Assembly (NCBI GenBank): GCA_023205875.1 | Contig: CP060759.1 | Coordinates: forward strand, 868,001-932,000 | Source: Chloropicon primus | Taxonomy: Eukaryota | Reading direction: 5' to 3' | DNA length: 64,000 bases | Part shown: in pieces, positions 35,714 to 64,000 of the stretch | Layout of the letters: each line of letters starts with the position of its first letter | How positions within the stretch are numbered: position 1 is the first letter of the stretch | The notes under the pieces: model-generated | Told to the model about the DNA's origin: nothing | Seen by the model: only the letters and a program-made list of their open reading frames with translations | Databases searched by the model: none | Program-made: the position numbers and the translations under genes

Positions 35714-35979
35714 GGGTGCTAGAATCGGGGTGGCACTTCGTGCGCGGGCGGGGTGGGGGCATTCTCCGCCCGGGTCGGTGCCCGGGAAAGGGACAAGGGG
35801 GTAGACGGGTGTGCCGTTGGTTTTTCACACAAACATCTTTAGAAGTAGAACAAGGAGGAGGTCGTTGGGGCATCTCATTTTTCAACAAATAAAACATGCT
35901 ACAACATAATACAATACTGCTCCTTGCTGACGCGCTTGGCCAGGCTGACCGTGGCCGCGGTTTAGGTTTCTGGTGGTTC

Positions 35980-36486
35980 TCAGAATATTCCAAACCTCCG
36001 CGGGGCTGGCTTCCCGCTCCGCCCTTCGAGCTCCTCCAGCCTGCTCAGCATCTCCCTCTGCTTCAGCTCGAGGTTGGCAATGATCGCCATCTGGTGTTCT
36101 TGCAGCCTCATCCTCTTCTCCTCCTTTTCTACCCTCCGCTTCTCTTTGTTCACCCTCTTCAGCTCGTCCCTCCTGTTGCTCCGGTCGTACTCGTACAGCA
36201 GCAGGCCCCCACCAACAGTGTAGATAAAACTTTCGGAGAAGAACTTCCCCGCCAGGTTCAGCGCCCGCTCGTCGTTCAGAGGCGATATCTCTGCGCCCTT
36301 CTTCTTCTCCTGGCCCCTTGCTGCCCTGTTGATCCTCACGTTCCACCTGTGGAGGACTTGAGCCCAATCGATCGCCCGCTGCCTCACCACCGGGTGGGAG
36401 AGCATGTAATCCTGGAAGACGTACGCCAAAGGCTTCGACGCCGTCTTCACCGTCATGGTGAACACTTTGATCGCAAGCTGCGCCAT
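35980..36486 (-). CDS. OPA3: OPA3-like protein
   Basis: VKTASKPLA, PLNDERALNLAGKFFSESFIYTVGGGLLLYEY and a coiled-coil tail. Confidence 0.85.
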   Translation of the reverse strand: MAQLAIKVFTMTVKTASKPLAYVFQDYMLSHPVVRQRAIDWAQVLHRWNVRINRAARGQEKKKGAEISPLNDERALNLAGKFFSESFIYTVGGGLLLYEYDRSNRRDELKRVNKEKRRVEKEEKRMRLQEHQMAIIANLELKQREMLSRLEELEGRSGKPAPRRFGIF

Positions 36487-36822
36487 CACAACCCCCGCAC
36501 CAGCCCCCTCCACACACCGTCCTCAACCAAGGCCACCACCAGGCTCCAATGCAATCCAAACCAAACCAAACCCGTTGCCTCCCTCTCCACCAACCCCCTT
36601 CTCTCTCTCGCCACCTCCGCCACTCCAGACGGCGGCAAACTCGTCGACTCCGAGCCTTGCCCCTCCCTTGCCTCGTCCCCACCGTCCTCCGCTTCGGGAC
36701 CGGGACGACGAACTCCGCTTCGACACGACCACCTTCGCTCCGCTCCTCGACAGACAGAGAGAGAGCGCGCGCGCGAGGGTGGTGGTGGTCGTGGGGAGGC
36801 AAAGGGCGGAAGGGGGGGGAGG

Positions 36823-45000: not shown

Positions 45001-47866
45001 CAAACGACCACGAGCGCACCATGTCGTTCAGGGCAACGGGGTCGAGCATCAACTGGTAAGAAGCAATGTGGGACGGGTCTCTCTGGCGCAGGTCGTTGCC
45101 GAGGATCACCAGCTTTGAGTTGCCATCCTGGCAGCTCTTTGAGATGAAATTGGAGATCCTTTTGGAGACTGGCTCTCTGCCTACTTGGATGATGCACTCC
45201 GGCTGCAGGTACGTGCTCGCCTCGGCGTCCAAGAGTATGTGGTCCAAGTTGTAAATGACGGTGGCTTTGGAATCCATTTTGCCTGACCCGAGCTTCAGAC
45301 CCGAAGATATGTCCGGTACAAGGGGCCACCCCAGTCTCTGGGCGGTCTCTATCAGCGCCAGGTTCTCTGACGCATTGGTGGAGGTGCCCACAATGATCAG
45401 ACCCTTTTTGCACTTTGAAACCGTGTCCATGAAATCCTCCCACGGCGCGAAATTCGTGCGACCCGACTCTCCCACAATCATGTTCGTCGTGTAAGGGAGG
45501 CCGCCGTCCGCCCACGCCCTGATCTTCCCATCCAGAACCCCCCTGTCCCACTCCTCGACGATCGGCGCGAGAGGCTCCCTGTACTGAAAGTTCAAGTGCA
45601 CCGGGCCAGGCAGGTTGTGAGTCGCGTATCTGTACGCCGTGGAGAGATTCGTCAGCAGCACGTCGCTCAAAGCGAGTTCTGGGGTCGGGGCCGGAAAGTT
45701 TCTGAACCAACGGGGGAACTTGCCGTAAATGTGCATCTGGTCTATCGTTTGGTTTGCCCCCGTGCCTTGGAGCTCAGCAGGCCTATCTGCTGTCAAGACA
45801 AGGAGGGGCACATTGGACTCACTCGCCTCGACGACAGCGGGCAGCAAATTCGCCACAGCGGTGCCCGAGGTCGTGATCACAGCCGCGGGCACCCCCTTCC
45901 CTTTGCCGATTCCGAGGGCGAAGAAGCCCAGGGATCTTTCGTCTATGCACGTGATCACCTCGGCCCTGGGGTGGTTCGCTGCCGCCAACACGAGCGGCGT
46001 GGATCTGCTTCCGGGAGCGATGCAAAAGTACTTCACACCGAGCCTGCAAAGCTCTTCCACGACAAGGAAGGCAGACAGAGCATTCGCGTTCGGGAAGCTC
46101 TCCAAGGCGAGCTTGCCTTGCCGCACGATCTGCGAGAACTGCTGCACCTTCAAGTCAAGCTCCTTCCACTCCAGGTCCGGCTTCGAGCCGTCCACGATCC
46201 CGACCCCAGCGTACATCACCAAATCGTTCTCGTTCCCCCTCTCCGGCTTGTTCTGCACGAGCGCGGATCTGATCGCGACCGCGAATTCTGAGCTCGACCC
46301 GGACATCCACCCAAAAGGCCCCGAATAGAGCCCCCTGTCAAAGCTCTCCATCGAAGCCAAGGCCTCCACGGACTCCTCGCAGGGGTACCCGGCCACTGCG
46401 GGCGTAGGGTGCAGCGCGGAAAGGAAGTGAAAGTCGTTCTTGCCCCTTGCAATCTTCCCAGACAACCTCCCGTACAGGTGCTGCACGTTGACGTGCTTCA
46501 AGACCTGCTTCTCTGCTTCGATCTCAACTTCGGTGCACAGGGACTCCAGGGCCTGCTTGATCGCGTCGCGCACAACAATGAACTCGTTGTGCTCCTTCTC
46601 TGACGTCAGGAGGTCCTTTGTCACCGAGGCGTCCTTTGACACCCGCGTGGTCGCGGCCACCGCCTCGCTGACGAGGCGGCCGCCGGCCCTCGCGTACAGG
46701 CGCTCCGGGGTGTTCCCAAAGAAGGCGCTGCCGCCGTCCAAAAGCATGCAGAACTGGTAGCCTTTCCTGTCCTGGTCTTGCAGGCACGACAGCATGTGCA
46801 AGGCGTCTACGGGCTGCCTGCAGGTGACCTTGGATCTCCTCGCGAGAACGAGCTTGCTCATCCTTCCCAAGACGTCGTTCACCAAGGGGTCCCACTCCTC
46901 CTCCGTCGGGTCGTGGGTGGCCTCGGAGGCCTCCAAGTGCACCGGTGCCCTGCCGCTGGCCTTGACGCCCCTCAGCCTGCTCAGGACCGCCCGCCCTTTC
47001 GACAGAGCGCCGTCGATGGAGTCTATCCTCTCCCCCTCGGTCCTCTGAGGGAGGTTATCCCAAGCGATGTTGCAGGCCAGCGTCGAGTGAGACGGCGTCG
47101 TCCGCAGCTCTACCGATGGAATCACAAAGGTGTACGAGCCGAACTCCTCCCACTCCTCTGAGGGCGTCTGGGTCGGATCGAATCGGATTCCCCCAAAGGC
47201 CCTGACCGCGTCCCCCCCCTCGCTCAGGAACCGGCTTATCCTGTCGTAAGATTCCAGATCGAAGGGTGATCCCGGCCGCCCCTGCCAGAGGCAAGTGGAC
47301 CCCACGCAGCCCACCTCGTGGTCCGCCCCCCCTCCGGCCCCCTCCGCCAAGTCGTCCAGCTTTCCCCCGGCAGTTTGCAGGCCCTCGCCGAACGTCGAAG
47401 TCTTCGGGGAGAAGTAGATCACGGGGTGCCCCTCCTTCAAGCTCTGGCCCCTGAGCCACCCGATCGTGTCCCCCTCGCGAGGAATCGTGACCTCCAGTCG
47501 GATGACGCCGCTCTCTTCCTCCGGCCGACTCTGCGAGATGTCTCTCAGGGCCTCGGAGAGCTTCTTCGCTCCCTGGTCGAAGCTGGACGCCACCCCGAGC
47601 TCCCTGCGAGCCACGGGGACGGGGCGGGACTCCGGCGAGAGCGCCTCGGCCTCCCGAAAGAAGGTATTGTCCTCGAGCACGCCGACATTAGGCGCCGAGG
47701 CCCGCGCGGGCAAGGGCCTCTTCCCAGAGGAGGAGACCAGTCTGCTGCTGCTGGCGAGCGAGCGACACCTCCTCGACGGCGACGAGGCCGGGCCTCGAGG
47801 AGGCGCGAGTCCCTCCTTCCCCCTCGCGGTGCTCGCCCTCAGGTGTGACGCCTTCCGCTCCATCAT
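42020..47866 (-). CDS. PHYLLO: PHYLLO, fused MenF-MenD-MenC-MenH phylloquinone biosynthesis protein
   Basis: ICS (GNTPERL, LHPTPAV, EFAVAIRS); MenD (PGSRSTPL, DERSLGF, TTSGTAVAN, NRGSSGIDG); MenC (KLKVGR, DANRAW, FIEEP, ALDE); MenH (HGFLG, YSMGAR, GHCVHLE). Confidence 0.95.
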   Translation of the reverse strand: MMERKASHLRASTARGKEGLAPPRGPASSPSRRCRSLASSSRLVSSSGKRPLPARASAPNVGVLEDNTFFREAEALSPESRPVPVARRELGVASSFDQGAKKLSEALRDISQSRPEEESGVIRLEVTIPREGDTIGWLRGQSLKEGHPVIYFSPKTSTFGEGLQTAGGKLDDLAEGAGGGADHEVGCVGSTCLWQGRPGSPFDLESYDRISRFLSEGGDAVRAFGGIRFDPTQTPSEEWEEFGSYTFVIPSVELRTTPSHSTLACNIAWDNLPQRTEGERIDSIDGALSKGRAVLSRLRGVKASGRAPVHLEASEATHDPTEEEWDPLVNDVLGRMSKLVLARRSKVTCRQPVDALHMLSCLQDQDRKGYQFCMLLDGGSAFFGNTPERLYARAGGRLVSEAVAATTRVSKDASVTKDLLTSEKEHNEFIVVRDAIKQALESLCTEVEIEAEKQVLKHVNVQHLYGRLSGKIARGKNDFHFLSALHPTPAVAGYPCEESVEALASMESFDRGLYSGPFGWMSGSSSEFAVAIRSALVQNKPERGNENDLVMYAGVGIVDGSKPDLEWKELDLKVQQFSQIVRQGKLALESFPNANALSAFLVVEELCRLGVKYFCIAPGSRSTPLVLAAANHPRAEVITCIDERSLGFFALGIGKGKGVPAAVITTSGTAVANLLPAVVEASESNVPLLVLTADRPAELQGTGANQTIDQMHIYGKFPRWFRNFPAPTPELALSDVLLTNLSTAYRYATHNLPGPVHLNFQYREPLAPIVEEWDRGVLDGKIRAWADGGLPYTTNMIVGESGRTNFAPWEDFMDTVSKCKKGLIIVGTSTNASENLALIETAQRLGWPLVPDISSGLKLGSGKMDSKATVIYNLDHILLDAEASTYLQPECIIQVGREPVSKRISNFISKSCQDGNSKLVILGNDLRQRDPSHIASYQLMLDPVALNDMVRSWSFEHPEFDPSGCKIYCKYILELDHIVSNSVNSCFERADTMSEPLIARVVSEIIPRSNALFLGNSMPIRDMEMSSANRNAEFDGGLVALGSNRGSSGIDGVTSSAAGFAESLGSPVTLLIGDVSFVHDSNGLNLLSGPSSSKRAPLTIIVVNNRGGRIFEMLPVAQQIDSSVLDSCFITDPEADVSSLCRAYRIPHQLVSSKEDMIEALRKSWRSKVHNVIEISVDPQASTEFRNFVKERVKEDLSVFTSQQVFLASHMWSLGPACIEIDRLVCEKMSYPLAKELTTSSSMAKEMVKVSIQASHKDAGKVVTSFGEVSPLENLHRETLKEAQSQLACVSSILPGKRLPLSVAALDGSLERWFSLIGIEPDSLLPSVRFGLESALLDLLSSALGYSVMGGAGQGEEVEGALQQRGGLVHVIGLLSLLSSDVATVVEDAERLVSRGYRGIKLKVGRSEVEKDIEMVRLISQRFGSDLVLRCDANRAWTLDEALTFADGVKGLEIEFIEEPVKDLADLEAFTRAQTIPVALDEHLSDRLRDTAAADVRERATELMSPLSGSLDAVVLKPSVLGSVEKFKSLVDLCVDLGVKPIVSSAFDSSVGLRSLSELALYVDSVRGARFEGRPPLLHGLGTIAWNIHEPREGRLFLEEATSLPFEGWARSLVIDVEKQAGPHKALPFSSSNSIVLYDSLKCELDHDQSIHEGFMKLYKCTNGSLNGHVHASAGVAPSLAFVHGFLGDVHDWLPLISSTASTNDCYAVSLPGHSSCTFECVKSMALQNTFAFASRSMSELLDQSSLHTPILVAYSMGARIALDMVLSSPEKYSGLMIISSSPGIKDEAERENRAIKDLMLSAQIRETRVESFLDSWYKQPLFESFSRSPQFMTTVSKRAKLHESSGLADAMGGLSPGLQDSLWPKLRDLEIPLCVVCGELDPKYVSISEEMCELARESPHLQPQDVQLHVVSGAGHCVHLEAPQAVAPILSNFVSYVERSETTAYES

Positions 47867-48980: not shown

Positions 48981-51587
48981 TCAGCCTTGTCCCGAGGACG
49001 ACGACCGCCTCAGCTCGGAGGCGGCGGAGACGACCTCCTCAATGCTCTCGAAGGTCGCCCTGCCGATCAGCAGCCTCTTGCCGAACTTGAGGGCTCTCTT
49101 CTCGCAGTCCGCTCGAACCTTCGCGTCCTCGATTCTATCCATGTCTTGTACGTGTGCAACCCCGACGATCCTCCTGATCATCTTGGCCCCCGCAAACCCG
49201 AGGGTGTCCTCGAAGACCTGCCTCATGAAGGTCTCCTGGCAGATCCTCCTCGCGCCGTCGCTGTCCTGGACCTTTGCGCCGAACAAAAGCTCGGGATACG
49301 CGGAGCTATCGCACTTCTCGTTCCACATCTTCAGGAACTTGTTCTGAAACAGGTTCCAGACGTCCCTGCAGCAAGCGATGAGCCAAGCCCTGTGCTCCTC
49401 CCTCTCCCCTTGCCCGGTCTCGTGGCCGTCCGACGCAAAGAAAGCGAGGAAGAGGTTCGAGATGAAGGCCCCGATGTCGAAACCCATCGGCCCGTAAAAG
49501 GCAAACTCCGGGTCGATGACGCTCACCGTGTCTTGGGTGACCATGACGCTCCCGGTGTGAAGGTCTCCGTGCAACAGGGCTTGGGCTTGCGTGCAGAACT
49601 TGGCCTTCAGCTCCGAGATCGCATCCTTCGCTGCGGCGTCCCTTCGAAGGTCGGCGACGTCGGCGTCCAGGTAGGGCGAGTTGTGCCTGTTGTGAAACGC
49701 GTCCCCGTAAGGATCGGTGAAGATGACCTGCTCGGTCAGCTCGCACATCGGGCTGTTGTCGGCGTAGAACGCCAGCTTTTTCCTGTACTCCGCGCTTGGC
49801 AAGGCGAAGAGGGAGCTCTTGAACAGGGTCGCCGCCAGGAACGTGGACATGCAGTCCGCCAGGTGAAGGTAAACGACCCCGTCGATCAGACCGTACCTCA
49901 GGATGATGTTTGGCGGGGCGAGGTACTCCATGAAGATCGCGGAGACCTTCTTGTCGAACTTGTAGACTTGGGGCACGTGGTCGGGGCACATCTCGTGCCC
50001 GTCCACGAGAGCGGTCGTCTCGAACATGGCCCGGTCCGCCGTCAGGGGCCACGACTCGCCGATGCACCTCACGTAGGGCAGAGCCTGCTTCACCACCATT
50101 CCTCGGCCCTCGCCGCCCTCCACGATGAAGACAAAGTTGATGTTCCCGTCGCCGACTTCCTTGACGGACCAGGTGCTGGCGTCCCCGGGAATCTTGGCCT
50201 TGAGGTCAGGGTCCCCCTGGATGTACCTCTTCAGCTCTTCCTCGGTGAAGCCTTTGGCGCCAGACAGGGGCATCGGGAGCTCCGAGCCACCCCGGCCCTC
50301 GCGAGCGCTGTCGATGAAGCCCTTCATGTCGAACTCCCCGGAAGAGTTTGGCCACACCGTCCCGTACTCGGTGATGATGCCAGCGATGAGGGGGGCGGGG
50401 GTCACGTCGAAGGCGGGGTTCCAGACGCCGATGCCGTCGGCGACAACCCGCTTGCCGTCCGGAAGGTGGGTCATCTCCTCGGAGCTCCGCTCCTCGATCG
50501 GAATCCCCGAGCCGTTCGGGAGGGACAGGTCAACGGTCGAAACGGGAGCCGCGACGAAGAAAGGGACGTTGGAATACGAAGCCGAGACGGCCAGGGAGTA
50601 CGTTCCGATCTTGTTGGCCACGTCCCCGTTCGCAGCGATTCGGTCCGCACCCAGGACGACCGCGTCCACTTCCCCCTTGCTCATCAGGTAAGGCGCGGTC
50701 GAGTCCGTCACGAGCGTGGAGGGTATCTTGTCGTGCACCAGCTCGTACGCCGTCAGCCTCGCCCCCTGGTTGTACGGCCGGGTCTCCGTGCAGTACGCCC
50801 TCTCGAGGACCTTGTCGCTGTGCAGGGACCTCACGACGCCGAGCGCGGTTCCGTACGAGGACGTGGCCAGCGCTCCCGTGTTGCAGTGGGTGAGAACCCT
50901 CAAGTTCGTGTCCTTGGACCTGCGCTTCCTGCAGGCCTCCTGGATGGCCTTGGAGCCAAAGCTTCCCATGCTGAGGTTGCCTTCGGTGTCCGTCCTCATG
51001 AGCTCCTCCGACGCGGCGATGACCACCTCGGCGAGGTCCTTCGAGGTCGCGCCGGGCCCGGCTCGTGCCACCCGCTGCTTCAGGTCGCCGCAAGCGATCG
51101 CCAAGTTCACCGCGGTCGGTCTGCTGGTGACCAGGTAGGTCAGCTTCTCGTTGATCCTCGACGCCATCTCCGAGGGGTCTGGGAAAGGAGAACCATAATG
51201 TTGTTAATATATGTAATCCGAAGTCAGTCCGTCGGGTCAGGCCCGGGGGGGGGGGATGCTTACCTTGGGGGAGGTCAGCGTTCGCGAGCTCGACCGCGAG
51301 GGACAGAACTCCCGCAATCGCTATCGCGGGGGCGCCCCTCACCACCATCGAATTGATCATCGTCCAACCATCTAAAGCGCAAATTAGAGAAAGAGAAAGA
51401 GAAACACACTTTTAGTTCGCGAGCGAACGAACACGCGCTTGAGATCTATACCTTTTGAGTCCCTGACGTCGAGGTACGTCTTCTCGTAAGGGATGACCCT
51501 TTGGTCCAGGAGCTTGAGCGTGGCACGACCCGATGCACCGTCCCTCTCGTATATGATCGCCCGCAGGCCGTGGTCCTCTGGCGCCAT
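48981..51587 (-). CDS. Fused methylthioribose-1-phosphate isomerase (MtnA/MRI1) + methylthioribose kinase (MtnK); introns 51372-51451 and 51179-51263
   Basis: LLDQR, MVVRGAPAI, SRPTAVNL, THCNTGALAT, ETRPYNQG, NKIGTY, NPAFDVTP, then in frame EVGDGNINFVF, KQALPY, HGDLHTGS, IDPEFAFYGP, RRIVGVAHV. Confidence 0.93.
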
Positions 51588-53237: not shown

Positions 53238-56200
53238 ATGCCAGAACCAAAGGTTAGGCAAGCTGTCCGTGGCGATGCAATAAATGTTCGCAAAATCGAT
53301 CACCTCACCTGGCCTGAGAATCTGTGGCTTAAAGACAAGGACTTTCAGTTCTACTTCGAATCGTATCTCGAGGGTCAGTTCGTAGTGGAGTGTGGCGACA
53401 GAGTCGTTGGCTGTCTATTCACTCAAAGACTTGACAACGAGTCAACTCTTCTTGATGATGGAAAGACAAGCTCAGACTTTACATCTTTGCACCAGGGCGA
53501 GGGCAAGGTGATTCAGTTGATAAGGATATCTGTCCTCCCCCAGTACGAAGGTTTAGGTTTAAGCCATGCCCTTATCGAAGGATCATTGGAACACTTAAAA
53601 AAACAACAGGGATCAATTGAAAAGGTTGTTGCAGTGACAAGGTGTTCTCAGTTCAAAGCAGCTGGCGCATACCCATACGATGACTACGTCTATAGCGGTC
53701 GCGATCCCACGATAGCTTTCCATGTTGGTAGGGGTGCTGAAGTTGTGAAGATACTTCACAACTTTCGGCTTGAAGACACTCAAAATGATGGACACGGTGT
53801 TCTTATTCGATACAGCTTGAAGACAAACACCGATTCCAACTTTGACCAGTCAACTAGTCAGCTTCAGTTTAGTCGTGATGACGCCGAATCTCGTATCAAA
53901 GACGCCGTTCGGAGAATAGCACAATCTTCTGAAGAGCCTGCTCTAGATGAACCATTGATAGAGTATGGTTTAGATTCCATTGACTTTAGCGGTTTAAAAG
54001 CCAGCTTGGAAAACATCTTTTCCATCAGCTTGGAAGCTACCTTCTTGTTTAGCTATCCAACCGTCCAACAGATCGCGGCCTACGTGGTAGATCAAAATAA
54101 AAATACCGGTAGCAAAGCCAAAGCTTTGGAAGTTGAACTCCCTGATGGATCCTTGACAAAAAGGAGCCCCAATTACTCAGAAGCTATTTGGATAATAGAC
54201 ACTGCTGAAAGACTTCCCGCTGCCATTGAAGTTGGCGGATTTAAAGAGGCAGTTTCTCACGTCCCTTTGAACCGGTGGGACCCCACCGGTTTTGAAGAAG
54301 TCATTGCCCAACAAAGTGGTGTCACTTCTGGTTCTTTTGGTATCTTCCTGCACCTTCATGAGTGTGATATTCATGGGATATCACAGAAAGAGGCTCTTCA
54401 GACCGACCCACAGCAATTGCTCATCATAGAAAATGCTCAGAATCTGAAACGTGCTTCTTGTCCAAAGCACGACGGGGAAATCGGTGTAGCTGCTGCAGTG
54501 TCGAACTTTGACTTTGCAGTACTTCAACAGAAGATCAAGCCGGTTGAGTCGCAGACACATAGCACCCTCATTGGTTCAGACCTGTCTGTCTGCTGCGGGA
54601 AAGTCTCGTACCTTTTGAATTTCAATGGGCCAAGTTATGTGGTGAATACAGCATGCTCCTCTTCTCTTGTGGCTACAAATGCAGCGATGCACTGTCTCAG
54701 GAATTTTGAGTGTCAGCTTCACTTCGTTCTCTCTGCAAGCACTATTCTATCCCCCCACGTAATGGTGGCTTACGCCAAAATGGGAATGCTGTCTATCGAT
54801 GGGAGGTGTCAATCCTTCGACCAGCAAGCGAACGGATACGTGCGAGCAGAAGCAAGCGTTGGTGTAAACCTGGGAATGGCCTCTGGTTCAGGAGTTGCCA
54901 TTGTTGCATCATCCGTACAACAAGATGGAAGGAGCGCAGGACTCACAGCACCAAATGGAATTGCTCAGCAAAAGCTACTGCTTCGCACTTCAATGGATGC
55001 TGATGTGCCTTTGAGTGACATTCAACACCAGGAGATGCACGCAACTGGTACACCGCTCGGCGACCCCATTGAGTACCAAGCATTCAAGCAAGCTCTTAGA
55101 TCGTCGTCACATGAAATGGGCTTTATCATATCAGTGAGTGGCACGAAAGCCATAGCAGGGCACGGGGAGCCATGTGCAGGGCTTTCGAGTACTCTCCGAA
55201 TCATCAAATCATCATTGAAAGCAAAGAAAATAGTCAACAACCGATTGAGATCAATGAACAAACACTTTGGCCCTGATATGATGGGGAGCAACCTCATTTT
55301 TCCTACTGTGAATGGATCAGCAGCACTCAGTAGCTCATACGCAGGTATCAATTCATTTGCATTCCAAGGCACGATCGCCCGCCTTTTGCTCAAATTTGAT
55401 AAAGGCAATGAAAGACCAGCGACACGCAAGGCACTCTGCAAGAAGCTCATCTCCTTCAAATGCGTTTCATATTGTAGCAGCAAAGTATTGGTAAGCAGCG
55501 GATCAAAAAAACTTTGCTTACATCTGAAACCAAAATTTGGACAGTTCACAATAGAAGGAAAAAGAGTCTTAACATTTGCCCAGATGTACTCATATCTTCA
55601 AATCGGCTACAATGATCTTTGCCAAGAGACCACCAAACAGAAAGCTGTAACGGCCGATATGGTTCAAACAAGAGTCATGCACATCGACTACAGGCAACAT
55701 CAAATGATGCAATGTACGGTGGACACAGTGACCGGACAAGTAGAACTCCAATCCCAAGCAGAAGGGAAAAGTCACAAAACCTGGAATCTCCAAGCCATAT
55801 GGAAGAAACCAGTCAAACACTTGCCAGAGCGCCAAACCACACACCAAGATCAAAACGAGTGGAACAAAGGCATCATGGGTATAATGCACCACAATCAAGC
55901 TGCACACACAGCCAATGCAATTGCAACAGTCGCCAAAACATCAAATGACCTCTATGATTACACCGTCAACCCAGCTGTGGGCGACGCAAATCTACAGCTT
56001 GGTGCCGTGGAAAGCGTGATTCGTTTGGCGAGCCAAGACAATGCTAGTCAAGAAACGCAAGTACCAACGGGTTGCCATGCCTATTACATGGGCGACCAGT
56101 CAGATGCTCCAGCAGCATACACGGCAGTCTGTCAGAATGGCTCCCAAGCTGGCATCTCAAGCCATAGACTAAAAAGTCTATGTGAAGAGATCAACTGTGC

Positions 56201-59200
56201 CTCAGTTCTCAATTTGCAAACCAAAGCAGCATTTAAATTGCAAAGTGCTTTGAATGCAGCCAACAGCCAACAGAAAGTGCAAGAAAAGGACATGCTCTTA
56301 TCGGCTTTGGTGTGGTCAGCCTGCTATGCGACCCCTCTGGACTGCGCTGCTCATCAAAATGCAATAATCGCAGGATCAAGGGACGCACAAGAGAATGTGC
56401 TTCTCGTGAAACTTGGAGACGCGCAATCCAATTTGGAGCATCCTCTCAAGATTGCATGCAGAAATGCAGGAGCTCTCTATTCATCATCTCATGTGGATAG
56501 TCCTGAAATGCAAGAGTACCTGACAAACACCTCAAAGTCGGTCCACGTTGTTTGCCTTGTCTCGCACCAAGCAAATGTTGCAAAGCAACTTGTAGGCCTT
56601 GCCAACCTTGTCAAAGCGGTGAACAAGTCAAACATGGAATCACCTAGTATCACTGTGGTTTTCTTGGATTCACAAACGACCATGAACGTCCAACACAACA
56701 CCTCAAAAGCATTGTGGGGAGCATGCAGGACGATGAGAATGGAGTACCCATCCTTGCAATTGACAACCATTCAAATGGATGCACACATGGACAAGAGTCA
56801 GGCAGCTCTTTACCTCTTGTCAGAAATCCAAAACAAACATTCAACTGAAAAGGAAGTCATGTACAAGAATGCGACACGATACATCAATACCATTGTGGAG
56901 AAGTATCCTTCTGCATCACAGCATCTCTCCCTCAATCCACATCTGGAAAAGCTCCAGAGAGGATCATATGTTATCACAGGAGGTCTTGGAGGTCTGGGTC
57001 TTGTGACCGCGCAACTTCTTGCAGATATGGGAGCGACAAGCATATCTCTCCTCTCAAGAAGTGGCATCATTCAGCGCACGGACCAAAACCTTAATGCCAT
57101 TCTCGACAAAGTAAGAGAGAAAGCCAATGTGGAGGTTATCGCATGTGATGTGAGCAAAGAAGATCATGTGCGCAATCTCTACACAAAGCAAAACCATCCT
57201 TGTGTGGGAATTATACATGCTGCCGGTGTCTTACGAGATGGCCTTGCTGCAAATCTCAACCATACTCAGGTCCAACAGGTATTTGACCCAAAGATCAGTG
57301 GCGCTTTGCATTTGCATCACAACACACTCCTGCAGCCATTGCAGGTATGCATCATGTTCTCCTCCATAGTGTCACTCTATGGAAACATTGGTCAGACCTC
57401 CTACAGTGCAGCAAATACCTATCTTGATACTTTGGCTGCTCTAAGGCAAAACCAAGGCCTTCCTGCGGTCAGCATACAATGGCCAGCAATATCTGGCATT
57501 GGCATGTGGGAAGGTCTATCAAGTGTCCACAAGAAAACATTTGAATTCAACCTTCCCGTAAAGGCCGTTATATCGTGCCTTCAAAATCTTGTGTCAAAGA
57601 AATCCTTCACAATCACAACCGTGACGATTTTACCAAGGTGGATGATCTACGGAACCAGGGAAAAGAACAAAGCACACATGGCAGCAAAGGCGGATCCAAA
57701 TGAAATCCAGCGGCAGCCAACAAGCGGAAGAAGCCAGAGCGTCAAATTCACATCTGTAGCTGTGTTGACTTCCCAAGTGCAAAATACAATTGAGCAAGCA
57801 GTCATAGATACTATTGGAGAAACCATTGACACGGAAAGTCCTCTCATGGAAGCAGGAGTCGACTCGCTTGCTTCATCAGAGCTTATCAACAAGATCAATG
57901 ATGACATGGGAACCTCTTTGGGGCCCACAATCTTGTTCGACTATCCAACAATTCAGGATCTCACACAGCACCTTGTGCAGACCCTCAAAGGACCTGACGC
58001 TACAGATCACGCCATTGAGGCTGTGGAGCGCATCCCAAACCATGATCCAATGCATGCTGTGACAACAACAATGCTGTCTTCTGCTATCAGATATCCAAAC
58101 CATACAAATTCAAACCAAAGGTTCTTGAATGTCCTTAACAACCAGTCCGAGCTTTGCTCAGTCACTCCACTTCAACGGTGGGACCGCATGGATTGGTATT
58201 CCTCACAGGGCTATGGGAACGACATCTATGTGCCCTTTGGATACTGGCTTCCAGACCTCTGGACCTTCCAACCTGATGCACTAAGCATGACTTCCGCAGA
58301 ATCCCTTTATGTGGACCCACAAGGAAGGAAGCTCCTGGAGGTCACATGGGAGGCCATGTACAACACTCCTCTATCTTCAAACAAACATGCCAGAACAAAT
58401 ACAGGTGTTTATGTAGGATGTTGTCAACAGGATTTCCAAAAAAATATCCATCACATGACAGACCCAGGGAAACAAATACTGGCATCCATAAGCTTCCTTT
58501 GTGGTCGTGTTTCTTATGTGATGGGCTTCAAAGGACCATGCATCAGCATAGATACTGCATGTTCCTCCTCGCTTGCAGCAACTCACTTGGGCAGGACAGC
58601 CATTATAGCACATGAATGTGATACAGCAACAATAGCAGGAACAAATATAATGATTGCACCACAAACAACGCAAGCTATTTGCAATTTGCAAGCCCTTGCC
58701 GTGGATGGAAGATGCAAAACCCTTGATGCAACTGCAAATGGATATGGCCGTGCCGAAGCTATTGCTGCCGTAATCATTGCAAATGCAAACGATACACACA
58801 CGAACATGCTCAAAATGCCTGTCAACATCGTTGCATCTTTTGTGAACCAAGATGGAAGATCAAGCAGTCTGACTGCACCAAATGGGCCATCACAGTCAAC
58901 ACTCATCTCATCTGCTTTGAGGCAAGCAAATCTGAAGCCAGAACAAATCAACCATGTTGTCATGCATGGAACAGGAACACCTCTGGGTGACCCAATTGAG
59001 GTTGGTGCCCTGGGACAAGCATTCCATTCAGATGACAAAGTTCATATGCTTGCACTTGCTGCAGTCAAGGTTGCTTTCGGACATACAGAAGGAGCAGCAG
59101 GACTCACGGGCCTACTTAGTGCAATGCAGTCGTGTAGCACGTTATGCATTCAACCGGTTACCGCATGCAGAAACATGAATGTTCATGTGCAGGGTGCAAT

Positions 59201-62200
59201 CAAAGATCATAGAGATGGGCACAAAAGAGTCACTTCTGCAAGGATTCAACAAGGTCCTTGGTCATTCACTTGTGATGAAAACAATGACAAAGCAATCGCA
59301 GGGACAAGCTCGTTTGGCATGAGCGGAGTCAACAGTCACGGGGTTGTTGAAGCAAAACTTGCAGGCCATACTTACAATGCGCAGAGTATTGCATGGAACA
59401 ACAAGCAAGTACTCTTCCCAATGGTTGGGTGTGCATTTGTGAAGGCTTCCTACAAAGCATCTACAAAACAACACCAAGTATTTGCGATTCAAATCAAGGA
59501 CCACAACCTGCTCGACCACATGGTCATGGGGAAATCCATTTTACCAGGTGCAGGATTCATGGAACTGTCATCAGCCTCTGCACGAGCTATGCTCAATCCA
59601 AACGTCTTACGTGATCTCAAACCAGTGCTTGCAAAGATATCAATTCCAGCCCCGATGCAGTTGGAACCAAACAAACATCAAATGATGCAATGTACGGTGG
59701 ACACAGTGACCGGACAAGTAGGACTGAAAAGTCACAAAACCTGGAATCTCCAAGCCATATGGAAGAAACCAGTCAAACACTTGCCAGAGCGCCAAACCAC
59801 ACACCAAGATCAAAACGAGTGGAACAAAGGCATCATGGGTATAATGCACCACAATCAAGCTGCACACACAGCCAATGCAATTGCAACAGTCGCCAAAACA
59901 TCAAATGACCTCTATGATTACACCGTCAACCCAGCTGTGGGCGACGCAAATCTACAGCTTGGTGCCGTGGAAAGCGTGATTCGTTTGGCGAGCCAAGACA
60001 ATGCTAGTCAAGAAACGCAAGTACCAACGGGTTGCCATGCCTATTACATGGGCGACCAGTCAGATGCTCCAGCAGCATACACGGCAGTCTGTCAGAATGG
60101 CTCCCAAGCTGGCATCTCAAGCCATAGACTAAAAAGTCTATGTGAAGAGATCAACTGTGCCTCAGTTCTCAATTTGCAAACCAAAGCAGCATTTAAATTG
60201 CAAAGTGCTTTGAATGCAGCCAACAGCCAACAGAAAGTGCAAGAAAAGGACATGCTCTTATCGGCTTTGGTGTGGTCAGCCTGCTATGCGACCCCTCTGG
60301 ACTGCGCTGCTCATCAAAATGCAATAATCGCAGGATCAAGGGACGCACAAGAGAATGTGCTTCTCGTGAAACTTGGAGACGCGCAATCCAATTTGGAGCA
60401 TCCTCTCAAGATTGCATGCAGAAATGCAGGAGCTCTCTATTCATCATCTCATGTGGATAGTCCTGAAATGCAAGAGTACCTGACAAACACCTCAAAGTCG
60501 GTCCACGTTGTTTGCCTTGTCTCGCACCAAGCAAATGTTGCAAAGCAACTTGTAGGCCTTGCCAACCTTGTCAAAGCGGTGAACAAGTCAAACATGGAAT
60601 CACCTAGTATCACTGTGGTTTTCTTGGATTCACAAACGACCATGAACGTCCAACACAACACCTCAAAAGCATTGTGGGGAGCATGCAGGACGATGAGAAT
60701 GGAGTACCCATCCTTGCAATTGACAACCATTCAAATGGATGCACACATGGACAAGAGTCAGGCAGCTCTTTACCTCTTGTCAGAAATCCAAAACAAACAT
60801 TCAACTGAAAAGGAAGTCATGTACAAGAATGCGACACGATACATCAATACCATTGTGGAGAAGTATCCTTCTGCATCACAGCATCTCTCCCTCAATCCAC
60901 ATCTGGAAAAGCTCCAGAGAGGATCATATGTTATCACAGGAGGTCTTGGAGGTCTGGGCCTTGTGACCGCGCAACTTCTTGCAGATATGGGAGCGACAAG
61001 CATATCTCTCCTCTCAAGAAGTGGCATCATTCAGCGCACGGACCAAAACCTTAATGCCATTCTCGACAAAGTAAGAGAGAAAGCCAATGTGGAGGTTATC
61101 GCATGTGATGTGAGCAAAGAAGATCATGTGCGCAATCTCTACACAAAGCAAAACCATCCTTGTGTGGGAATTATACATGCTGCCGGTGTCTTACGAGATG
61201 GCCTTGCTGCAAATCTCAACCATACTCAGGTCCAACAGGTATTTGACCCAAAGATCAGTGGCGCTTTGCATTTGCATCACAACACACTCCTGCAGCCATT
61301 GCAGGTATGCATCATGTTCTCCTCCATAGCTTCACTCTATGGAAACATTGGTCAGACCTCCTACAGTGCAGCAAATACCTATCTTGATACTTTGGCTGCT
61401 CTAAGGCAAAACCAAGGCCTTCCTGCGGTCAGCATACAATGGCCAGCAATATCTGGCATTGGCATGTGGGAAGGTCTATCAAGTGTCCACAAGAAAACAA
61501 CACCGTTCACGCTGTCTGTCGAGGGAGCTATCACATCTCTCAATAAGATTCTGAAGGACCTTTCATCCTTCACAATCACAACCGTGACGATTTTACCAAG
61601 GTGGATGATCTACGGAACCAGGGAAAAGAACAAAGCACACATGGCAGCAAAGGCGGATCCAAATGAAATCCAGCGGCAGCCAACAAGCGGAAGAAGCCAG
61701 AGCGTCAAATTCACATCTGTAGCTGTGTTGACTTCCCAAGTGCAAAATACAATTGAGCAAGCAGTCATAGATACTATTGGAGAAACCATTGACACGGAAA
61801 GTCCTCTCATGGAAGCAGGAGTCGACTCGCTTGCTTCATCAGAGCTTATCAACAAGATCAATGATGACATGGGAACCTCTTTGGGGCCCACAATCTTGTT
61901 CGACTATCCAACAATTCAGGATCTCACACAGCACCTTGTGCAGACCCTCAAAGGACCTGACGCTACAGATCACGCCATTGAGGCTGTGGAGCGCATCCCA
62001 AACCATGATCCAATGCATGCTGTGACAACAACAATGCTGTCTTCTGCTATCAGATATCCAAACCATACAAATTCAAACCAAAGGTTCTTGAATGTCCTTA
62101 ACAACCAGTCCGAGCTTTGCGCAGTCACTCCACTTCAACGGTGGGACCGCATGGATTGGTATTCCTCACAGGGCTATGGGAACGACATCTATGTGCCCTT

Positions 62201-64000
62201 TGGATACTGGCTTCCAGACCTCTGGACCTTCCAACCTGATGCACTAAGCATGACTTCCGCAGAATCCCTTTATGTGGACCCACAAGGAAGGAAGCTCCTG
62301 GAGGTCACATGGGAGGCCATGTACAACACTCCTCTATCTTCAAACAAACATGCCAGAACAAATACAGGCGTTTATGTAGGATGTATGTACACAGAGTACC
62401 CACATATCCTGAAGGGGGCAAACATGGCAAACAATGCTGGTACAGGTACTGGAAGCGGCATTAGCTTCCTTTGTGGTCGTGTTTCTTATGTGATGGGCTT
62501 CAAAGGACCATGCATCAGCATAGATACTGCATGTTCCTCCTCCCTTGCAGCAACTCACTTGGGCAGGACAGCCATTATAGCACATGAATGTGATACAGCA
62601 ACAATAGCAGGAACAAATATAATGATTGCACCACAAACAACCCAAGGTGTTTGCAATTTGCAAGCCCTTGCCGTGGATGGAAGATGCAAAACCCTTGATG
62701 CAACTGCAAATGGATATGGCCGTGCCGAAGCTATTGCTGCCGTAATCATTGCAAATGCAAACGATACACACACGAACATGCTCAAAATGCCTGTCAACAT
62801 CGTTGCATCTTTTGTGAACCAAGATGGAAGATCAAGCAGTCTGACTGCACCAAATGGGCCATCACAGTCAACACTCATCTCATCTGCTTTGAGGCAAGCA
62901 AATCTGAAGCCAGAACAAATCAACCATGTTGTCATGCATGGAACAGGAACACCTCTGGGTGACCCAATTGAGGTTGGTGCCCTGGGACAAGCATTCCATT
63001 CAGATGACAAAGTTCATATGCTTGCACTTGCTGCAGTCAAGGTTGCTTTCGGACATACAGAAGGAGCAGCAGGACTCACGGGCCTACTTAGTGCAATGCA
63101 GTCGTGTAGCACGTTATGCATTCAACCGGTTACCGCATGCAGAAACATGAATGTTCATGTGCAGGGTGCAATCAAAGATCATAGAGATGGGCACAAAAGA
63201 GTCACTTCTGCAAGGATTCAACAAGGTCCTTGGTCATTCACTTGTGATGAAAACAATGACAAAGCAATCGCAGGGACAAGCTCGTTTGGCATGAGCGGAG
63301 TCAACAGTCACGGGGTTGTTGAAGCAAAACTTGCAGGCCATACTTACAATGCGCAGAGTATTGCATGGAACAACAAGCAAGTACTCTTCCCAATGGTTGG
63401 GTGTGCATTTGTGAAGGCTTCCTACAAAGCATCTACAAAACAACACCAAGTATTTGCGATTCAAATCAAGGACCACAACCTTCTGAGCTACATGGTCATG
63501 GGGAAATCCATTTTACCAGGTGCAGGATTCATGGAACTGTCATCAGCCTCTGCACGAGCTATGCTTAATCCAAACGTCTTACGTGATCTCAAACCAGTGC
63601 TTGCAAAGATATCAATTCCAGCCCCGATGCAGTTGGAACCAAACAAACATCAAATGATGCAATGTACGGTGGACACAGTGACCGGACAAGTAGGACTGAA
63701 AAGTCACAAAACCTGGAATCTCCAAGCCATATGGAAGAAACCAGTCAAACACTTGCCAGAGCGCCAAACCACACACCAAGATCAAAACGAGTGGAACAAA
63801 GGCATCATGGGTATAATGCACCACAATCAAGCTGCACACACAGCCAATGCAATTGCAACAGTCGCCAAAACATCAAATGACCTCTATGATTACACCGTCA
63901 ACCCAGCTGTGGGCGACGCAAATCTACAGCTTGGTGCCGTGGAAAGCGTGATTCGTTTGGCGAGCCAAGACAATGCTAGTCAAGAAACGCAAGTACCAAC
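53238..64000 (+). CDS. Giant modular trans-AT type I polyketide synthase, 3'-partial: GNAT-ACP-KS-DH0-KR-ACP-KS-DH-KR-ACP-KS-DH0-...
   Basis: My translation from ATG 53238; all checked motifs lie in one frame: GNAT VVAVTR..AFH; ACP GLDS (53976); KS NTACSSS (54654), HATGT (55038), GHGE (55161); KR TGGLGGLG, LRD (57231), YSAAN (57402); ACP GVDS (57864, 61827); KS DTACSSS (58560, 62532); DH HxxxGxxxxP (59517); no AT domain between KS and DH. Confidence 0.93.
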   Translation, partial: MPEPKVRQAVRGDAINVRKIDHLTWPENLWLKDKDFQFYFESYLEGQFVVECGDRVVGCLFTQRLDNESTLLDDGKTSSDFTSLHQGEGKVIQLIRISVLPQYEGLGLSHALIEGSLEHLKKQQGSIEKVVAVTRCSQFKAAGAYPYDDYVYSGRDPTIAFHVGRGAEVVKILHNFRLEDTQNDGHGVLIRYSLKTNTDSNFDQSTSQLQFSRDDAESRIKDAVRRIAQSSEEPALDEPLIEYGLDSIDFSGLKASLENIFSISLEATFLFSYPTVQQIAAYVVDQNKNTGSKAKALEVELPDGSLTKRSPNYSEAIWIIDTAERLPAAIEVGGFKEAVSHVPLNRWDPTGFEEVIAQQSGVTSGSFGIFLHLHECDIHGISQKEALQTDPQQLLIIENAQNLKRASCPKHDGEIGVAAAVSNFDFAVLQQKIKPVESQTHSTLIGSDLSVCCGKVSYLLNFNGPSYVVNTACSSSLVATNAAMHCLRNFECQLHFVLSASTILSPHVMVAYAKMGMLSIDGRCQSFDQQANGYVRAEASVGVNLGMASGSGVAIVASSVQQDGRSAGLTAPNGIAQQKLLLRTSMDADVPLSDIQHQEMHATGTPLGDPIEYQAFKQALRSSSHEMGFIISVSGTKAIAGHGEPCAGLSSTLRIIKSSLKAKKIVNNRLRSMNKHFGPDMMGSNLIFPTVNGSAALSSSYAGINSFAFQGTIARLLLKFDKGNERPATRKALCKKLISFKCVSYCSSKVLVSSGSKKLCLHLKPKFGQFTIEGKRVLTFAQMYSYLQIGYNDLCQETTKQKAVTADMVQTRVMHIDYRQHQMMQCTVDTVTGQVELQSQAEGKSHKTWNLQAIWKKPVKHLPERQTTHQDQNEWNKGIMGIMHHNQAAHTANAIATVAKTSNDLYDYTVNPAVGDANLQLGAVESVIRLASQDNASQETQVPTGCHAYYMGDQSDAPAAYTAVCQNGSQAGISSHRLKSLCEEINCASVLNLQTKAAFKLQSALNAANSQQKVQEKDMLLSALVWSACYATPLDCAAHQNAIIAGSRDAQENVLLVKLGDAQSNLEHPLKIACRNAGALYSSSHVDSPEMQEYLTNTSKSVHVVCLVSHQANVAKQLVGLANLVKAVNKSNMESPSITVVFLDSQTTMNVQHNTSKALWGACRTMRMEYPSLQLTTIQMDAHMDKSQAALYLLSEIQNKHSTEKEVMYKNATRYINTIVEKYPSASQHLSLNPHLEKLQRGSYVITGGLGGLGLVTAQLLADMGATSISLLSRSGIIQRTDQNLNAILDKVREKANVEVIACDVSKEDHVRNLYTKQNHPCVGIIHAAGVLRDGLAANLNHTQVQQVFDPKISGALHLHHNTLLQPLQVCIMFSSIVSLYGNIGQTSYSAANTYLDTLAALRQNQGLPAVSIQWPAISGIGMWEGLSSVHKKTFEFNLPVKAVISCLQNLVSKKSFTITTVTILPRWMIYGTREKNKAHMAAKADPNEIQRQPTSGRSQSVKFTSVAVLTSQVQNTIEQAVIDTIGETIDTESPLMEAGVDSLASSELINKINDDMGTSLGPTILFDYPTIQDLTQHLVQTLKGPDATDHAIEAVERIPNHDPMHAVTTTMLSSAIRYPNHTNSNQRFLNVLNNQSELCSVTPLQRWDRMDWYSSQGYGNDIYVPFGYWLPDLWTFQPDALSMTSAESLYVDPQGRKLLEVTWEAMYNTPLSSNKHARTNTGVYVGCCQQDFQKNIHHMTDPGKQILASISFLCGRVSYVMGFKGPCISIDTACSSSLAATHLGRTAIIAHECDTATIAGTNIMIAPQTTQAICNLQALAVDGRCKTLDATANGYGRAEAIAAVIIANANDTHTNMLKMPVNIVASFVNQDGRSSSLTAPNGPSQSTLISSALRQANLKPEQINHVVMHGTGTPLGDPIEVGALGQAFHSDDKVHMLALAAVKVAFGHTEGAAGLTGLLSAMQSCSTLCIQPVTACRNMNVHVQGAIKDHRDGHKRVTSARIQQGPWSFTCDENNDKAIAGTSSFGMSGVNSHGVVEAKLAGHTYNAQSIAWNNKQVLFPMVGCAFVKASYKASTKQHQVFAIQIKDHNLLDHMVMGKSILPGAGFMELSSASARAMLNPNVLRDLKPVLAKISIPAPMQLEPNKHQMMQCTVDTVTGQVGLKSHKTWNLQAIWKKPVKHLPERQTTHQDQNEWNKGIMGIMHHNQAAHTANAIATVAKTSNDLYDYTVNPAVGDANLQLGAVESVIRLASQDNASQETQVPTGCHAYYMGDQSDAPAAYTAVCQNGSQAGISSHRLKSLCEEINCASVLNLQTKAAFKLQSALNAANSQQKVQEKDMLLSALVWSACYATPLDCAAHQNAIIAGSRDAQENVLLVKLGDAQSNLEHPLKIACRNAGALYSSSHVDSPEMQEYLTNTSKSVHVVCLVSHQANVAKQLVGLANLVKAVNKSNMESPSITVVFLDSQTTMNVQHNTSKALWGACRTMRMEYPSLQLTTIQMDAHMDKSQAALYLLSEIQNKHSTEKEVMYKNATRYINTIVEKYPSASQHLSLNPHLEKLQRGSYVITGGLGGLGLVTAQLLADMGATSISLLSRSGIIQRTDQNLNAILDKVREKANVEVIACDVSKEDHVRNLYTKQNHPCVGIIHAAGVLRDGLAANLNHTQVQQVFDPKISGALHLHHNTLLQPLQVCIMFSSIASLYGNIGQTSYSAANTYLDTLAALRQNQGLPAVSIQWPAISGIGMWEGLSSVHKKTTPFTLSVEGAITSLNKILKDLSSFTITTVTILPRWMIYGTREKNKAHMAAKADPNEIQRQPTSGRSQSVKFTSVAVLTSQVQNTIEQAVIDTIGETIDTESPLMEAGVDSLASSELINKINDDMGTSLGPTILFDYPTIQDLTQHLVQTLKGPDATDHAIEAVERIPNHDPMHAVTTTMLSSAIRYPNHTNSNQRFLNVLNNQSELCAVTPLQRWDRMDWYSSQGYGNDIYVPFGYWLPDLWTFQPDALSMTSAESLYVDPQGRKLLEVTWEAMYNTPLSSNKHARTNTGVYVGCMYTEYPHILKGANMANNAGTGTGSGISFLCGRVSYVMGFKGPCISIDTACSSSLAATHLGRTAIIAHECDTATIAGTNIMIAPQTTQGVCNLQALAVDGRCKTLDATANGYGRAEAIAAVIIANANDTHTNMLKMPVNIVASFVNQDGRSSSLTAPNGPSQSTLISSALRQANLKPEQINHVVMHGTGTPLGDPIEVGALGQAFHSDDKVHMLALAAVKVAFGHTEGAAGLTGLLSAMQSCSTLCIQPVTACRNMNVHVQGAIKDHRDGHKRVTSARIQQGPWSFTCDENNDKAIAGTSSFGMSGVNSHGVVEAKLAGHTYNAQSIAWNNKQVLFPMVGCAFVKASYKASTKQHQVFAIQIKDHNLLSYMVMGKSILPGAGFMELSSASARAMLNPNVLRDLKPVLAKISIPAPMQLEPNKHQMMQCTVDTVTGQVGLKSHKTWNLQAIWKKPVKHLPERQTTHQDQNEWNKGIMGIMHHNQAAHTANAIATVAKTSNDLYDYTVNPAVGDANLQLGAVESVIRLASQDNASQETQVP
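55696..64000 (+). repeat. Tandem ~3.96-3.97 kb near-identical PKS module repeats (2 full copies plus the start of a 3rd)
   Basis: AACATCAAATGATGCAATGTACGGTGGACACAG recurs at ~55696, ~59674 and ~63646; offsets 3960-3978 bp, all multiples of 3; identical short shadow ORFs recur in the track. Confidence 0.97.

What the first reader, a model, noticed from the sequence alone, without database searches (positions are those of the whole stretch)
55696..64000. Near-identical PKS modules differing only at discrete function-determining cassettes
Seen: kilobases of the repeats match even at synonymous sites, yet short blocks are wholly different. KS region: CQQDFQKNIHHMTDPGKQILASI (58422-58490) vs MYTEYPHILKGANMANNAGTGTGSGI (62385-62462). 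KS: TQAIC vs TQGVC. KR: FSSIVS vs FSSIAS. KR C-terminus: FEFNLPVKAVISCLQNLVSKK (57540-57602) vs TPFTLSVEGAITSLNKILKDLS (61500-61565). There is also the DH motif change and an 18-bp in-frame indel. Inference: concerted evolution homogenises the scaffold while selection keeps specificity patches. This gives a natural map of the minimal residues that reprogram a module.
Basis: partly seen in the sequence, partly recalled or inferred. Interest (0 to 1): 0.85.

Follow-up and report, generated by a model that had tools for sequence, protein, structure and literature searches.

The report
Algal PKS keeps only gatekeeper patches
A giant polyketide-building enzyme of the marine green alga Chloropicon primus repeats a 4-kb module almost letter for letter; its largest internal difference falls on the known substrate-checking loop of the chain-extending domain, so that patch likely marks what tells each module which intermediate to accept.

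Summary
Confirmed. The window ends inside an AT-less modular polyketide synthase of Chloropicon primus (ORF 53238 to >64000). Two ~3.97-kb module copies differ at 7 of ~937 synonymous sites outside two saturated 63-78-nt blocks and an 18-bp indel. Short-read contigs collapse the scaffold at 3-4.6 times single-copy depth and hold the patches at 1-2 times, so this is not a polishing artefact; about four copies exist. The KS patch starts exactly at gatekeeper positions 1-4. KS3 reads CMYT (VMYH register, enoyl-selecting) behind a His-bearing DH; KS2 reads CCQQ behind a His-less DH and is the only scored member of its clade lacking the Met (33 of 34 others have it). Synonymous differences cluster beside amino-acid islands. 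Best reading: gene conversion homogenises modules while selection spares gatekeeper sites. No orthologue test was possible and no chemistry is shown. 'Minimal residues' is overstated, and the KR changes have no known role. Known ingredients (PKS gene conversion, divergence peaks, KS gatekeeping) meet in an unusually clean natural loop swap.

The parts
53238..64000 (+). Type I modular PKS ORF, open at the 3' end (3587 aa in window): GNAT-ACP-KS1-DH(His-less)-KR-ACP-KS2-DH-KR-ACP-KS3-DH(His>Tyr)...; no AT domain
   Evidence: Pfam KS x3, KR x2, ACP x3, GNAT; no acyltransferase family
53301..54092 (+). GNAT domain and loading ACP (approximate bounds)
   Evidence: Acetyltransf_1, residues 22-145; GLDS motif at 53967
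54177..55695 (+). KS1 and N-terminal half of DH1, unique and outside the homogenised tract; DH1 lacks the HxxxGxxxxP His (approximate bounds)
   Evidence: 28.5% identity to the module-2 counterpart; no PKS_DH_N hit at E<=1; single-copy depth
55696..59673 (+). Repeat unit A (DH C-half, KR1, ACP1, KS2, DH2 N-half)
   Evidence: tandem joint 59673->55696 in short-read contigs
59674..63645 (+). Repeat unit B (DH2 C-half, KR2, ACP2, KS3, DH3 N-half)
63646..64000 (+). Start of repeat unit C, identical to unit B
55744..55765 (+). 18-bp in-frame extra sequence in unit A near the tract edge
   Evidence: table 4
57369..57371 (+). KR1 Val (FSSIVS); Ala in KR2 at 61329-61331
   Evidence: both alleles seen in short-read contigs
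57540..57602 (+). KR1 C-terminal block: short strand plus last helix after the predicted lid helix
   Evidence: own contig at 1.3x depth in run X5
61500..61565 (+). KR2 C-terminal block (homologous, synonymous sites saturated)
58419..58490 (+). KS2 gatekeeper (dimer-interface) loop, positions 1-4 = CCQQ; follows the His-less DH1
   Evidence: contig at 0.92x depth in X3
62382..62462 (+). KS3 gatekeeper loop, positions 1-4 = CMYT (VMYH register; Met3050 = Cys-49); follows the His-bearing DH2
58668..58679 (+). KS2 TQAI (Cys+38/+39); TQGV in KS3 at 62640-62651, with an adjacent synonymous change
   Evidence: helix 204-212 of the model
59508..59519 (+). DH2 catalytic His2094 in HxxxGxxxxP; DH3 has Tyr at 63489 with two adjacent synonymous changes (63480-63491)
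   Evidence: (aligns with the DH His motif of AmbC, 5o15)

Best explanation
This is an AT-less assembly-line polyketide synthase of Chloropicon primus with about four tandem near-identical modules, likely kept identical by repeated gene conversion while selection likely spares the short stretches that match each ketosynthase to the chemistry done just upstream. Shown: the repeat, the saturated patches, their register with the KS gatekeeper motif and the DH His, and the short-read copy numbers. Inferred chemistry: module 1 (His-less DH, B-type KR) would hand on a beta-hydroxyacyl chain, which KS2 would accept because its Met-Tyr gatekeeper pair has been replaced (CCQQ). Module 2 (active DH) would hand on an enoyl chain that KS3 (CMYT) would select. 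Module 3 (His>Tyr) would again leave a hydroxyl. Inferred evolution: a conversion tract that overwrote one of these sites would mismatch KS and substrate and be purged, so old divergence survives there together with neighbouring silent changes, while everything else, including fast-evolving linkers, is reset to identity.
For: Scaffold divergence is 7 of ~937 synonymous sites, while 4 of 5 conserved codons differ inside the KR block. 4 of 7 synonymous differences lie within 20 nt of an amino-acid island (expected fraction 0.068, p 6e-4; 3 of 6 after merging two adjacent ones, p 5e-3). CMYT-EY aligns with VMYH-DY of bacterial KSs; Ray et al. (PMC11321453, parts 1-2 of 3 read) show that Met at position 2 selects enoyl over beta-hydroxy chains. 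Among 380 classified non-first KSs from proteins fetched here, position-2 Met occurs in 65 of 108 after a His-DH, 10 of 136 after KR only, 0 of 17 after ER and 9 of 119 after neither (rows are not phylogenetically independent). In a loop-masked tree, KS2 and KS3 sit in a 36-row clade (SH-aLRT 97, quick tree) where 33 of the 34 other rows have that Met (1 not parsed); KS2 is the only row there classed as following a KR-only module. The most variable KS window among 51 homologues (model residues 389-414) and the next-ranked ones at 363-388 and 44-69 are identical between KS2 and KS3. Unitig depths fit 4 KR/ACP copies and 3 KS copies, with CCQQ at 0.9x and CM[Y/S]T at 1.9-2.0x. A second C. primus PKS (P0168, P0382) has 99%-identical modules whose few KS differences again hit this loop and the same Cys+39 residue.
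Against: No orthologue was found: apart from P0002 the best of 360 listed hits was at most 50% identical, and the profile search could not be run, so the defining test of concerted evolution is missing. The patch is in the 5% most variable windows of KS homologues, so tolerance contributes. CCQQ matches no known beta-hydroxy motif (TNGQ) and occurs in none of the other 698 KS domains. The VMYH experiments are on a cis-AT bacterial KS. Another record of this gene (P0002) has TQAIC behind MYTEY and Tyr at 3178, so small islands are either polymorphic or assembly-sensitive. The KR block and the V/A change have no described function. Other algal and bacterial near-identical pairs (P0004, P0092) keep the loop identical although my pattern search gave P0004's two KSs different upstream classes. 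No product or activity is known.
Confidence: 0.65

Rival explanations
1. Recent tandem duplication of one enoyl-type module, followed by import of short old patches from a since-lost or unlinked PKS paralogue (cassette exchange), rather than long-standing copies under continuous homogenisation. The patches would still be functional.
For: Explains saturated blocks on a 0.75%-divergent scaffold equally well; recent module duplications are described in algal PKSs (PMC4661987, passages); the genome paper counts 12 PKS genes as possible donors (PMC6731263, passages).
Against: No donor among the proteins fetched: best local scores for the four patches were 34-50 against self scores of 105-140, but only three other C. 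primus PKS proteins were among them. Short-tract import needs flanking identity that paralogues at ~33% identity lack (P0168). Small islands with adjacent silent changes look like remnants rather than imports.
Confidence: 0.18
2. Neutral islands: gene conversion homogenises the modules but stalls at heterologous blocks in tolerant loops, so the patches persist without selection for module-specific function.
For: The KS patch lies in one of the most variable KS windows and includes a 3-codon indel; conversion can be disrupted by accumulated differences (PMC3924837, passages); the KR block has no known specificity role.
Against: A more variable KS window and several comparably variable ones are fully homogenised; 1-4-nt islands (A/G-I/V, D/S-H/Y) are too small to block conversion (inference); the patch type matches the upstream DH state in both testable cases.
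Confidence: 0.12
3. Assembly artefact: consensus or polishing copied one module's bases over the others and left only unalignable blocks.
For: Logan contigs drop minority variants; two records of the gene disagree at TQAIC/TQGVC and residue 3178, and P0002 ends in a frameshift; the second locus is split into frameshifted ORFs.
Against: Three short-read DNA? runs of one sample give single unitigs across the scaffold at 3.3-4.6x depth with 1-4 other letters each; 14 of 16 contigs laid from X1 are at least 95% alike; low-depth pieces from three other studies (X6, X7, X8) match the scaffold with 0-3 differences.
Confidence: 0.04

Closest known systems
Chlorophyte multimodular trans-AT PKSs with duplicated modules (OluPKS3 and others; Shelest et al. 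2015, PMC4661987, passages read)
   Same: Green-algal, AT-less, multimodular; modules 89-98% similar with KS and ACP 98-100% conserved
   Different: Read there as recent duplication; 'gene conversion', 'recombination' and 'concerted' occur 0 times in the main text; no sub-domain patches or gatekeeper mapping in the passages seen
Mycolactone PKS (mls) locus (Pidot et al. 2008, PMC2569948, passages read)
   Same: Near-identical domains attributed to ongoing gene conversion; active and inactive DH variants
   Different: mls KSs are >99% identical and their small changes do not correlate with substrate (permissive KSs). Here the gatekeeper loop is wholly different and tracks the upstream DH
[quoted passage not shown] 2021, PMC8256042, part 1 of 5 and passages; Kishore and Khosla 2023, PMC10394414, passages)
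   Same: Intra-gene repeats of >90% DNA identity explained by gene conversion
   Different: Skews are far below the 25% criterion on average; the tract spans almost a whole module; these papers expect trans-AT PKSs to tolerate conversion poorly because their KSs are selective, and sparing the loop would be a way round that
VMYH/TNGQ ketosynthase gatekeeping (Ray et al. 2024, PMC11321453; Hirsch et al. 2021 known only through that paper)
   Same: [quoted passage not shown]
   Different: Shown in actinomycete cis-AT KSs; a 4-residue swap only partly switched selectivity there; here a 23-26-residue loop differs on a 99%-identical algal trans-AT KS, with a non-canonical CCQQ alternative
Divergence peaks under gene conversion (human red/green opsins; Fawcett and Innan 2011, PMC3924837, passages)
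   Same: High divergence confined to selected sites, low in flanks
   Different: Here between coding repeats inside one open reading frame; not verified with orthologues

Membership tests
Algal multimodular trans-AT type I PKS | Several KS-(DH)-KR-ACP modules in one ORF | tested here: met
   3 KS, 2 KR, 3 ACP; Cys, His and His motifs intact in KS2 and KS3; KS3 model matches PKS KSs, TM 0.92 to 4na1
Algal multimodular trans-AT type I PKS | No integrated AT domain | tested here: met
   No acyltransferase Pfam family in the 3587 aa inside the window; the rest of the gene was not seen
Algal multimodular trans-AT type I PKS | Free-standing AT supplying the extender | not tested
   No whole genome held
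Concerted evolution by gene conversion | Paralogous copies near-identical at synonymous sites beside old divergent segments | tested here: met
Concerted evolution by gene conversion | Paralogues within a species closer to each other than to orthologues of a sister species | tested here: inconclusive
   No sister-species orthologue among the hits; representative search not run
Concerted evolution by gene conversion | Alleles shared or swapped between copies among isolates | tested here: inconclusive
   KS3 differs between the window and P0002 at 3137-3138 (towards KS2) and 3178 (away from KS2); assembly error not excluded
GRINS | >90% DNA identity to another region of the same PKS | tested here: met
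GRINS | GC and TA skews above 25%, correlated | tested here: not met
   Mean absolute GC skew 0.10, TA skew 0.17, correlation 0.08 in 150-nt windows over the repeat (averages only); criterion from PMC10394414
Enoyl-accepting (VMYH-type) ketosynthase, KS3 | Met at position 2 and Tyr at position 3 of the dimer-interface loop | tested here: met
   CMYT in register with VMYH; Met is Cys-49, as G111/C160 in PMC13347036
Enoyl-accepting (VMYH-type) ketosynthase, KS3 | Upstream DH with catalytic His | tested here: met
   His2094 in HxxxGxxxxP
Enoyl-accepting (VMYH-type) ketosynthase, KS3 | Measured preference for the enoyl thioester | not testable with these tools
   needs an assay
D-beta-hydroxy-accepting (TNGQ-type) ketosynthase, KS2 | TNGQ motif | tested here: not met
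   CCQQ, unique among 699 KS domains; KS2 is predicted to work like such a KS but is not a member

The most novel reading that the evidence does not exclude
Nature has reprogrammed an enoyl-selecting trans-AT ketosynthase into a beta-hydroxyacyl acceptor by replacing one 23-26-residue loop plus two helix residues on an otherwise identical domain, and gene conversion in this alga resets every other residue. Chloropicon PKS genes would then be self-annotating maps of module-specificity determinants, including a so-far unrecognised one at the KR C-terminal helix, and would show how selective trans-AT assembly lines survive homogenisation.
Probability: 0.4. Interest if true: 0.8.

Novelty: new variant of a known kind. 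Interest (0 to 1): 0.6.

Why it matters
What makes a ketosynthase accept one processed intermediate and refuse another limits PKS engineering; a four-residue motif swap only partly switched selectivity in the published test. Two natural KSs that are identical except for the gatekeeper loop and three other residues, each behind a different DH state, make that question directly testable with a handful of chimeras. The case would also extend gene-conversion-driven PKS evolution to a eukaryotic trans-AT system, where it was expected to be poorly tolerated, and suggests a general way to find specificity residues: look for divergence peaks in homogenised repeats.

Tried and rejected
No whole genome is held, so modules beyond 64000 were inferred only from unitig depths and loose ends. 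No RNA holder was listed; nothing is concluded on expression. Three homologue searches (120 rows listed each) gave no relative above 50% identity other than P0002. The profile search of representatives was never accepted because the queue was full, so orthologues remain unsearched there. Donor search for the four patches among fetched proteins was negative. GRINS rejected. Hirsch 2021, Lohman 2015 and Vander Wood 2018 are not held, so the 32 tunnel positions and the name 'clasping loop' for the Cys+38/+39 region rest on recall and could not be checked. The structure tool returns no coordinates, so distances from patches to the tunnel were not measured; the KR model is weak (mean pLDDT 63, 15 sequences). 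The careful tree did not finish; the quick tree was used. P0004's N-terminal part looks like a poor gene model and was not used beyond its KS pair. No complex was predicted. Searches that found no description of this gene's repeats: 0 papers with 4 of 5 terms; 4 listed; subscription journals are not covered, and of the genome paper's 20 supplements only Data 3 was read.

Full report
What the locus is. The window is intron-poor eukaryotic DNA; cluster members of two neighbouring genes are named Chloropicon primus. From 53238 an ORF runs off the window after 3587 residues. Pfam finds a GNAT, three KS, two KR, three ACP and a DH domain, and no acyltransferase. It is therefore an AT-less multimodular type I PKS of the kind described for chlorophytes (PMC4661987, passages). 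The species' genome paper lists 12 type I PKS genes and notes their low GC, but the passages and the one supplementary table I read contain no analysis of repeats (PMC6731263).

The observation. Outside the two blocks and the 18-bp indel, 4173 nt hold 14 differing codons, 7 of them synonymous at ~937 synonymous sites, with perfect runs up to 1233 nt. Inside the KR block the two versions share 5 of 21 residues, and 4 of those 5 use different codons, so the blocks are anciently diverged homologues. Point mutation after one recent duplication cannot give saturated blocks on a 0.75% background; recombination between copies or import must be involved (inference). The tract begins in mid-DH: KS1 and the His-less first half of DH1 are only 28.5% identical to module 2.

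Is it an artefact? Eight of the 21 listed runs were laid as short-read contigs. In three DNA? runs of one sample the scaffold is collapsed into unitigs of 1831, 2827 and 2619 nt at 4.6, 3.8 and 3.3 times the depth of the single-copy 5' part, with a joint from 59673 back to 55696. The patches are separate contigs: CCQQ at 0.9x, CM[Y/S]T at 1.9-2.0x, and a third KR-end route at 2.1-2.9x. This fits four KR/ACP copies and three KS copies, but depth is a rough measure and contigs drop minority variants. Low-depth pieces from three other studies match the scaffold with 0-3 differences. Block-level identity is therefore real. Single-base islands are less secure: another record of the gene (P0002) has the same blocks in the same order but TQAIC instead of TQGVC in KS3, Tyr at 3178 and a frameshift at 3380, while run X3 does hold the Gly allele of TQGVC at 1.4x.

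Where the patches fall. The KS block starts right after GVYVG, in register with GVFAG-VMYH-DY of bacterial KSs. [quoted passage not shown] KS3 reads CMYT with Met at Cys-49, the same offset as G111 to C160 in PMC13347036 (passages), and follows DH2, whose His2094 aligns with the DH His motif of AmbC. KS2 reads CCQQ and follows the His-less DH1. Among 699 distinct KS domains cut from fetched proteins, 316 were first in their protein and could not be classed and 3 are the window's; of the rest, position-2 Met occurs in 65 of 108 after a His-DH, 10 of 136 after KR only, 0 of 17 after ER and 9 of 119 after neither (pattern-based classes, related rows). A tree of the 70 closest KSs with the loop left out puts KS2 and KS3 in a 36-row clade (SH-aLRT 97, quick tree); 33 of the other 34 rows have the Met, one was not parsed, and of the 13 others with a scored upstream class 10 follow a His-DH and 3 neither. 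KS2 is thus an enoyl-clade scaffold that has lost the gatekeeper pair exactly where the upstream DH is dead. In the KS3 model (pLDDT 91, TM 0.92 to the bacillaene KS 4na1) the block covers the loop and two helices after strand 115-121, and TQGV lies on helix 204-212; that this helix lines the acyl tunnel is recalled, not measured. The KR block is the short strand and last helix after the predicted lid helix (weak model). Both KRs share the B-type LRD, and neither the block nor V/A is among the fingerprints in PMC5331325 (passages), so their function is open.

Selection or tolerance? The KS patch is among the 5% most variable 26-residue windows in 51 homologues, which favours tolerance. But the most variable window (389-414) and those at 363-388 and 44-69 are identical between KS2 and KS3. 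Four of 7 synonymous differences lie within 20 nt of an amino-acid island (p 6e-4; 3 of 6 after merging neighbours, p 5e-3), the hitch-hiking expected at divergence peaks kept under gene conversion (PMC3924837, passages). Of 538 within-protein KS pairs in 191 proteins, 27 are at least 85% identical downstream of the Cys and 4 at least 99%. Only the window's pair has a fully replaced loop; two pairs have identical loops; the fourth, another C. primus PKS, has 3 of its 4 differences in this loop and at the same Cys+39 residue.

Mechanism. Shown: repeat, saturated islands, their register, approximate copy number. Inferred: conversion between tandem modules resets the scaffold; tracts covering the gatekeeper loop, the Cys+38/+39 residues or the DH His site would mismatch KS and substrate and are purged; the line would alternate beta-hydroxy and enoyl steps after a GNAT-loaded starter. 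I put this at 0.65, recent duplication with patch import at 0.18, neutral trapped islands at 0.12 and artefact at 0.04. The orthologue test that defines concerted evolution could not be done: no relative above 50% identity was listed apart from P0002.

Relation to what is known. Gene conversion in PKSs is established (PMC8256042; PMC2569948; PMC13500794, passages), as are near-identical algal modules (two earlier notes of this scan on Ostreococcus). This repeat fails the GRINS skew criterion. Mycolactone KSs solved homogenisation by being permissive, and trans-AT KSs were expected to tolerate conversion poorly. Sparing a sub-domain gatekeeper loop on a 99%-identical trans-AT KS is the new element; six literature searches listed no paper describing it, within an open-access library.

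Verdict. New variant of a known kind, interest 0.6.

Noticed in passing
P0168, P0381, P0382 (UPR02038.1, UPR02036.1, UPR02035.1; named C. primus): A second C. primus PKS locus has 1270-aa modules ~99% identical; KS differences fall in the same loop and at Cys+39 (Ile/Val/Ala); one copy has a different KR-end-to-ACP linker. The ORFs are short and end in apparent frameshifts, possibly assembly errors.
   Followed up: partly
window 57539->57766 and 58058 (runs X1-X5): Short-read contigs show a third KR-end/linker route at about two copies and an exit after the ACP into different sequence, probably a divergent terminal part of the gene beyond the window.
   Followed up: partly
window 62389, 57922, 58797, 61345: Extra alleles in short-read contigs, not in either window copy: KS loop Tyr3051Ser, ACP Gly1562Ala, KS His1854Tyr, KR Asn2703Ser; likely from modules beyond the window or other isolates.
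   Followed up: partly
P0002 vs window 63375: Another record of this gene ends at 3391 aa by a frameshift after KS3; no indel row appears there in the short-read contigs, so the truncation may be an assembly error.
   Followed up: partly
window 53238-64000: The PKS has GC 46% and GC3 0.45 against GC3 0.70-0.77 for two neighbouring host genes; low GC at PKS loci is mentioned in the genome paper.
   Followed up: no
window 54645-55170: KS1 has variant motifs (NTACSS, HATGT, GHGE) and follows a GNAT-ACP loading unit.
   Followed up: no
window 3416-5584: IS605/TnpB-like (Fanzor-type, label recalled) gene with HTH_OrfB and Cas12f1-like TNB domains; cluster of 46 members in C. primus.
   Followed up: no
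window 35896-40665, 42020-47866, 48981-51167: Single long ORFs for telomerase reverse transcriptase, a fused menaquinone/phylloquinone biosynthesis protein, and an IF-2B plus phosphotransferase fusion.
   Followed up: no
P0004 (Bathycoccus), P0116 and P0027 (Parachlorella), P0087: Other algal or unnamed PKSs also hold modules 90-100% identical, without a swapped KS loop in the pairs examined.
   Followed up: partly
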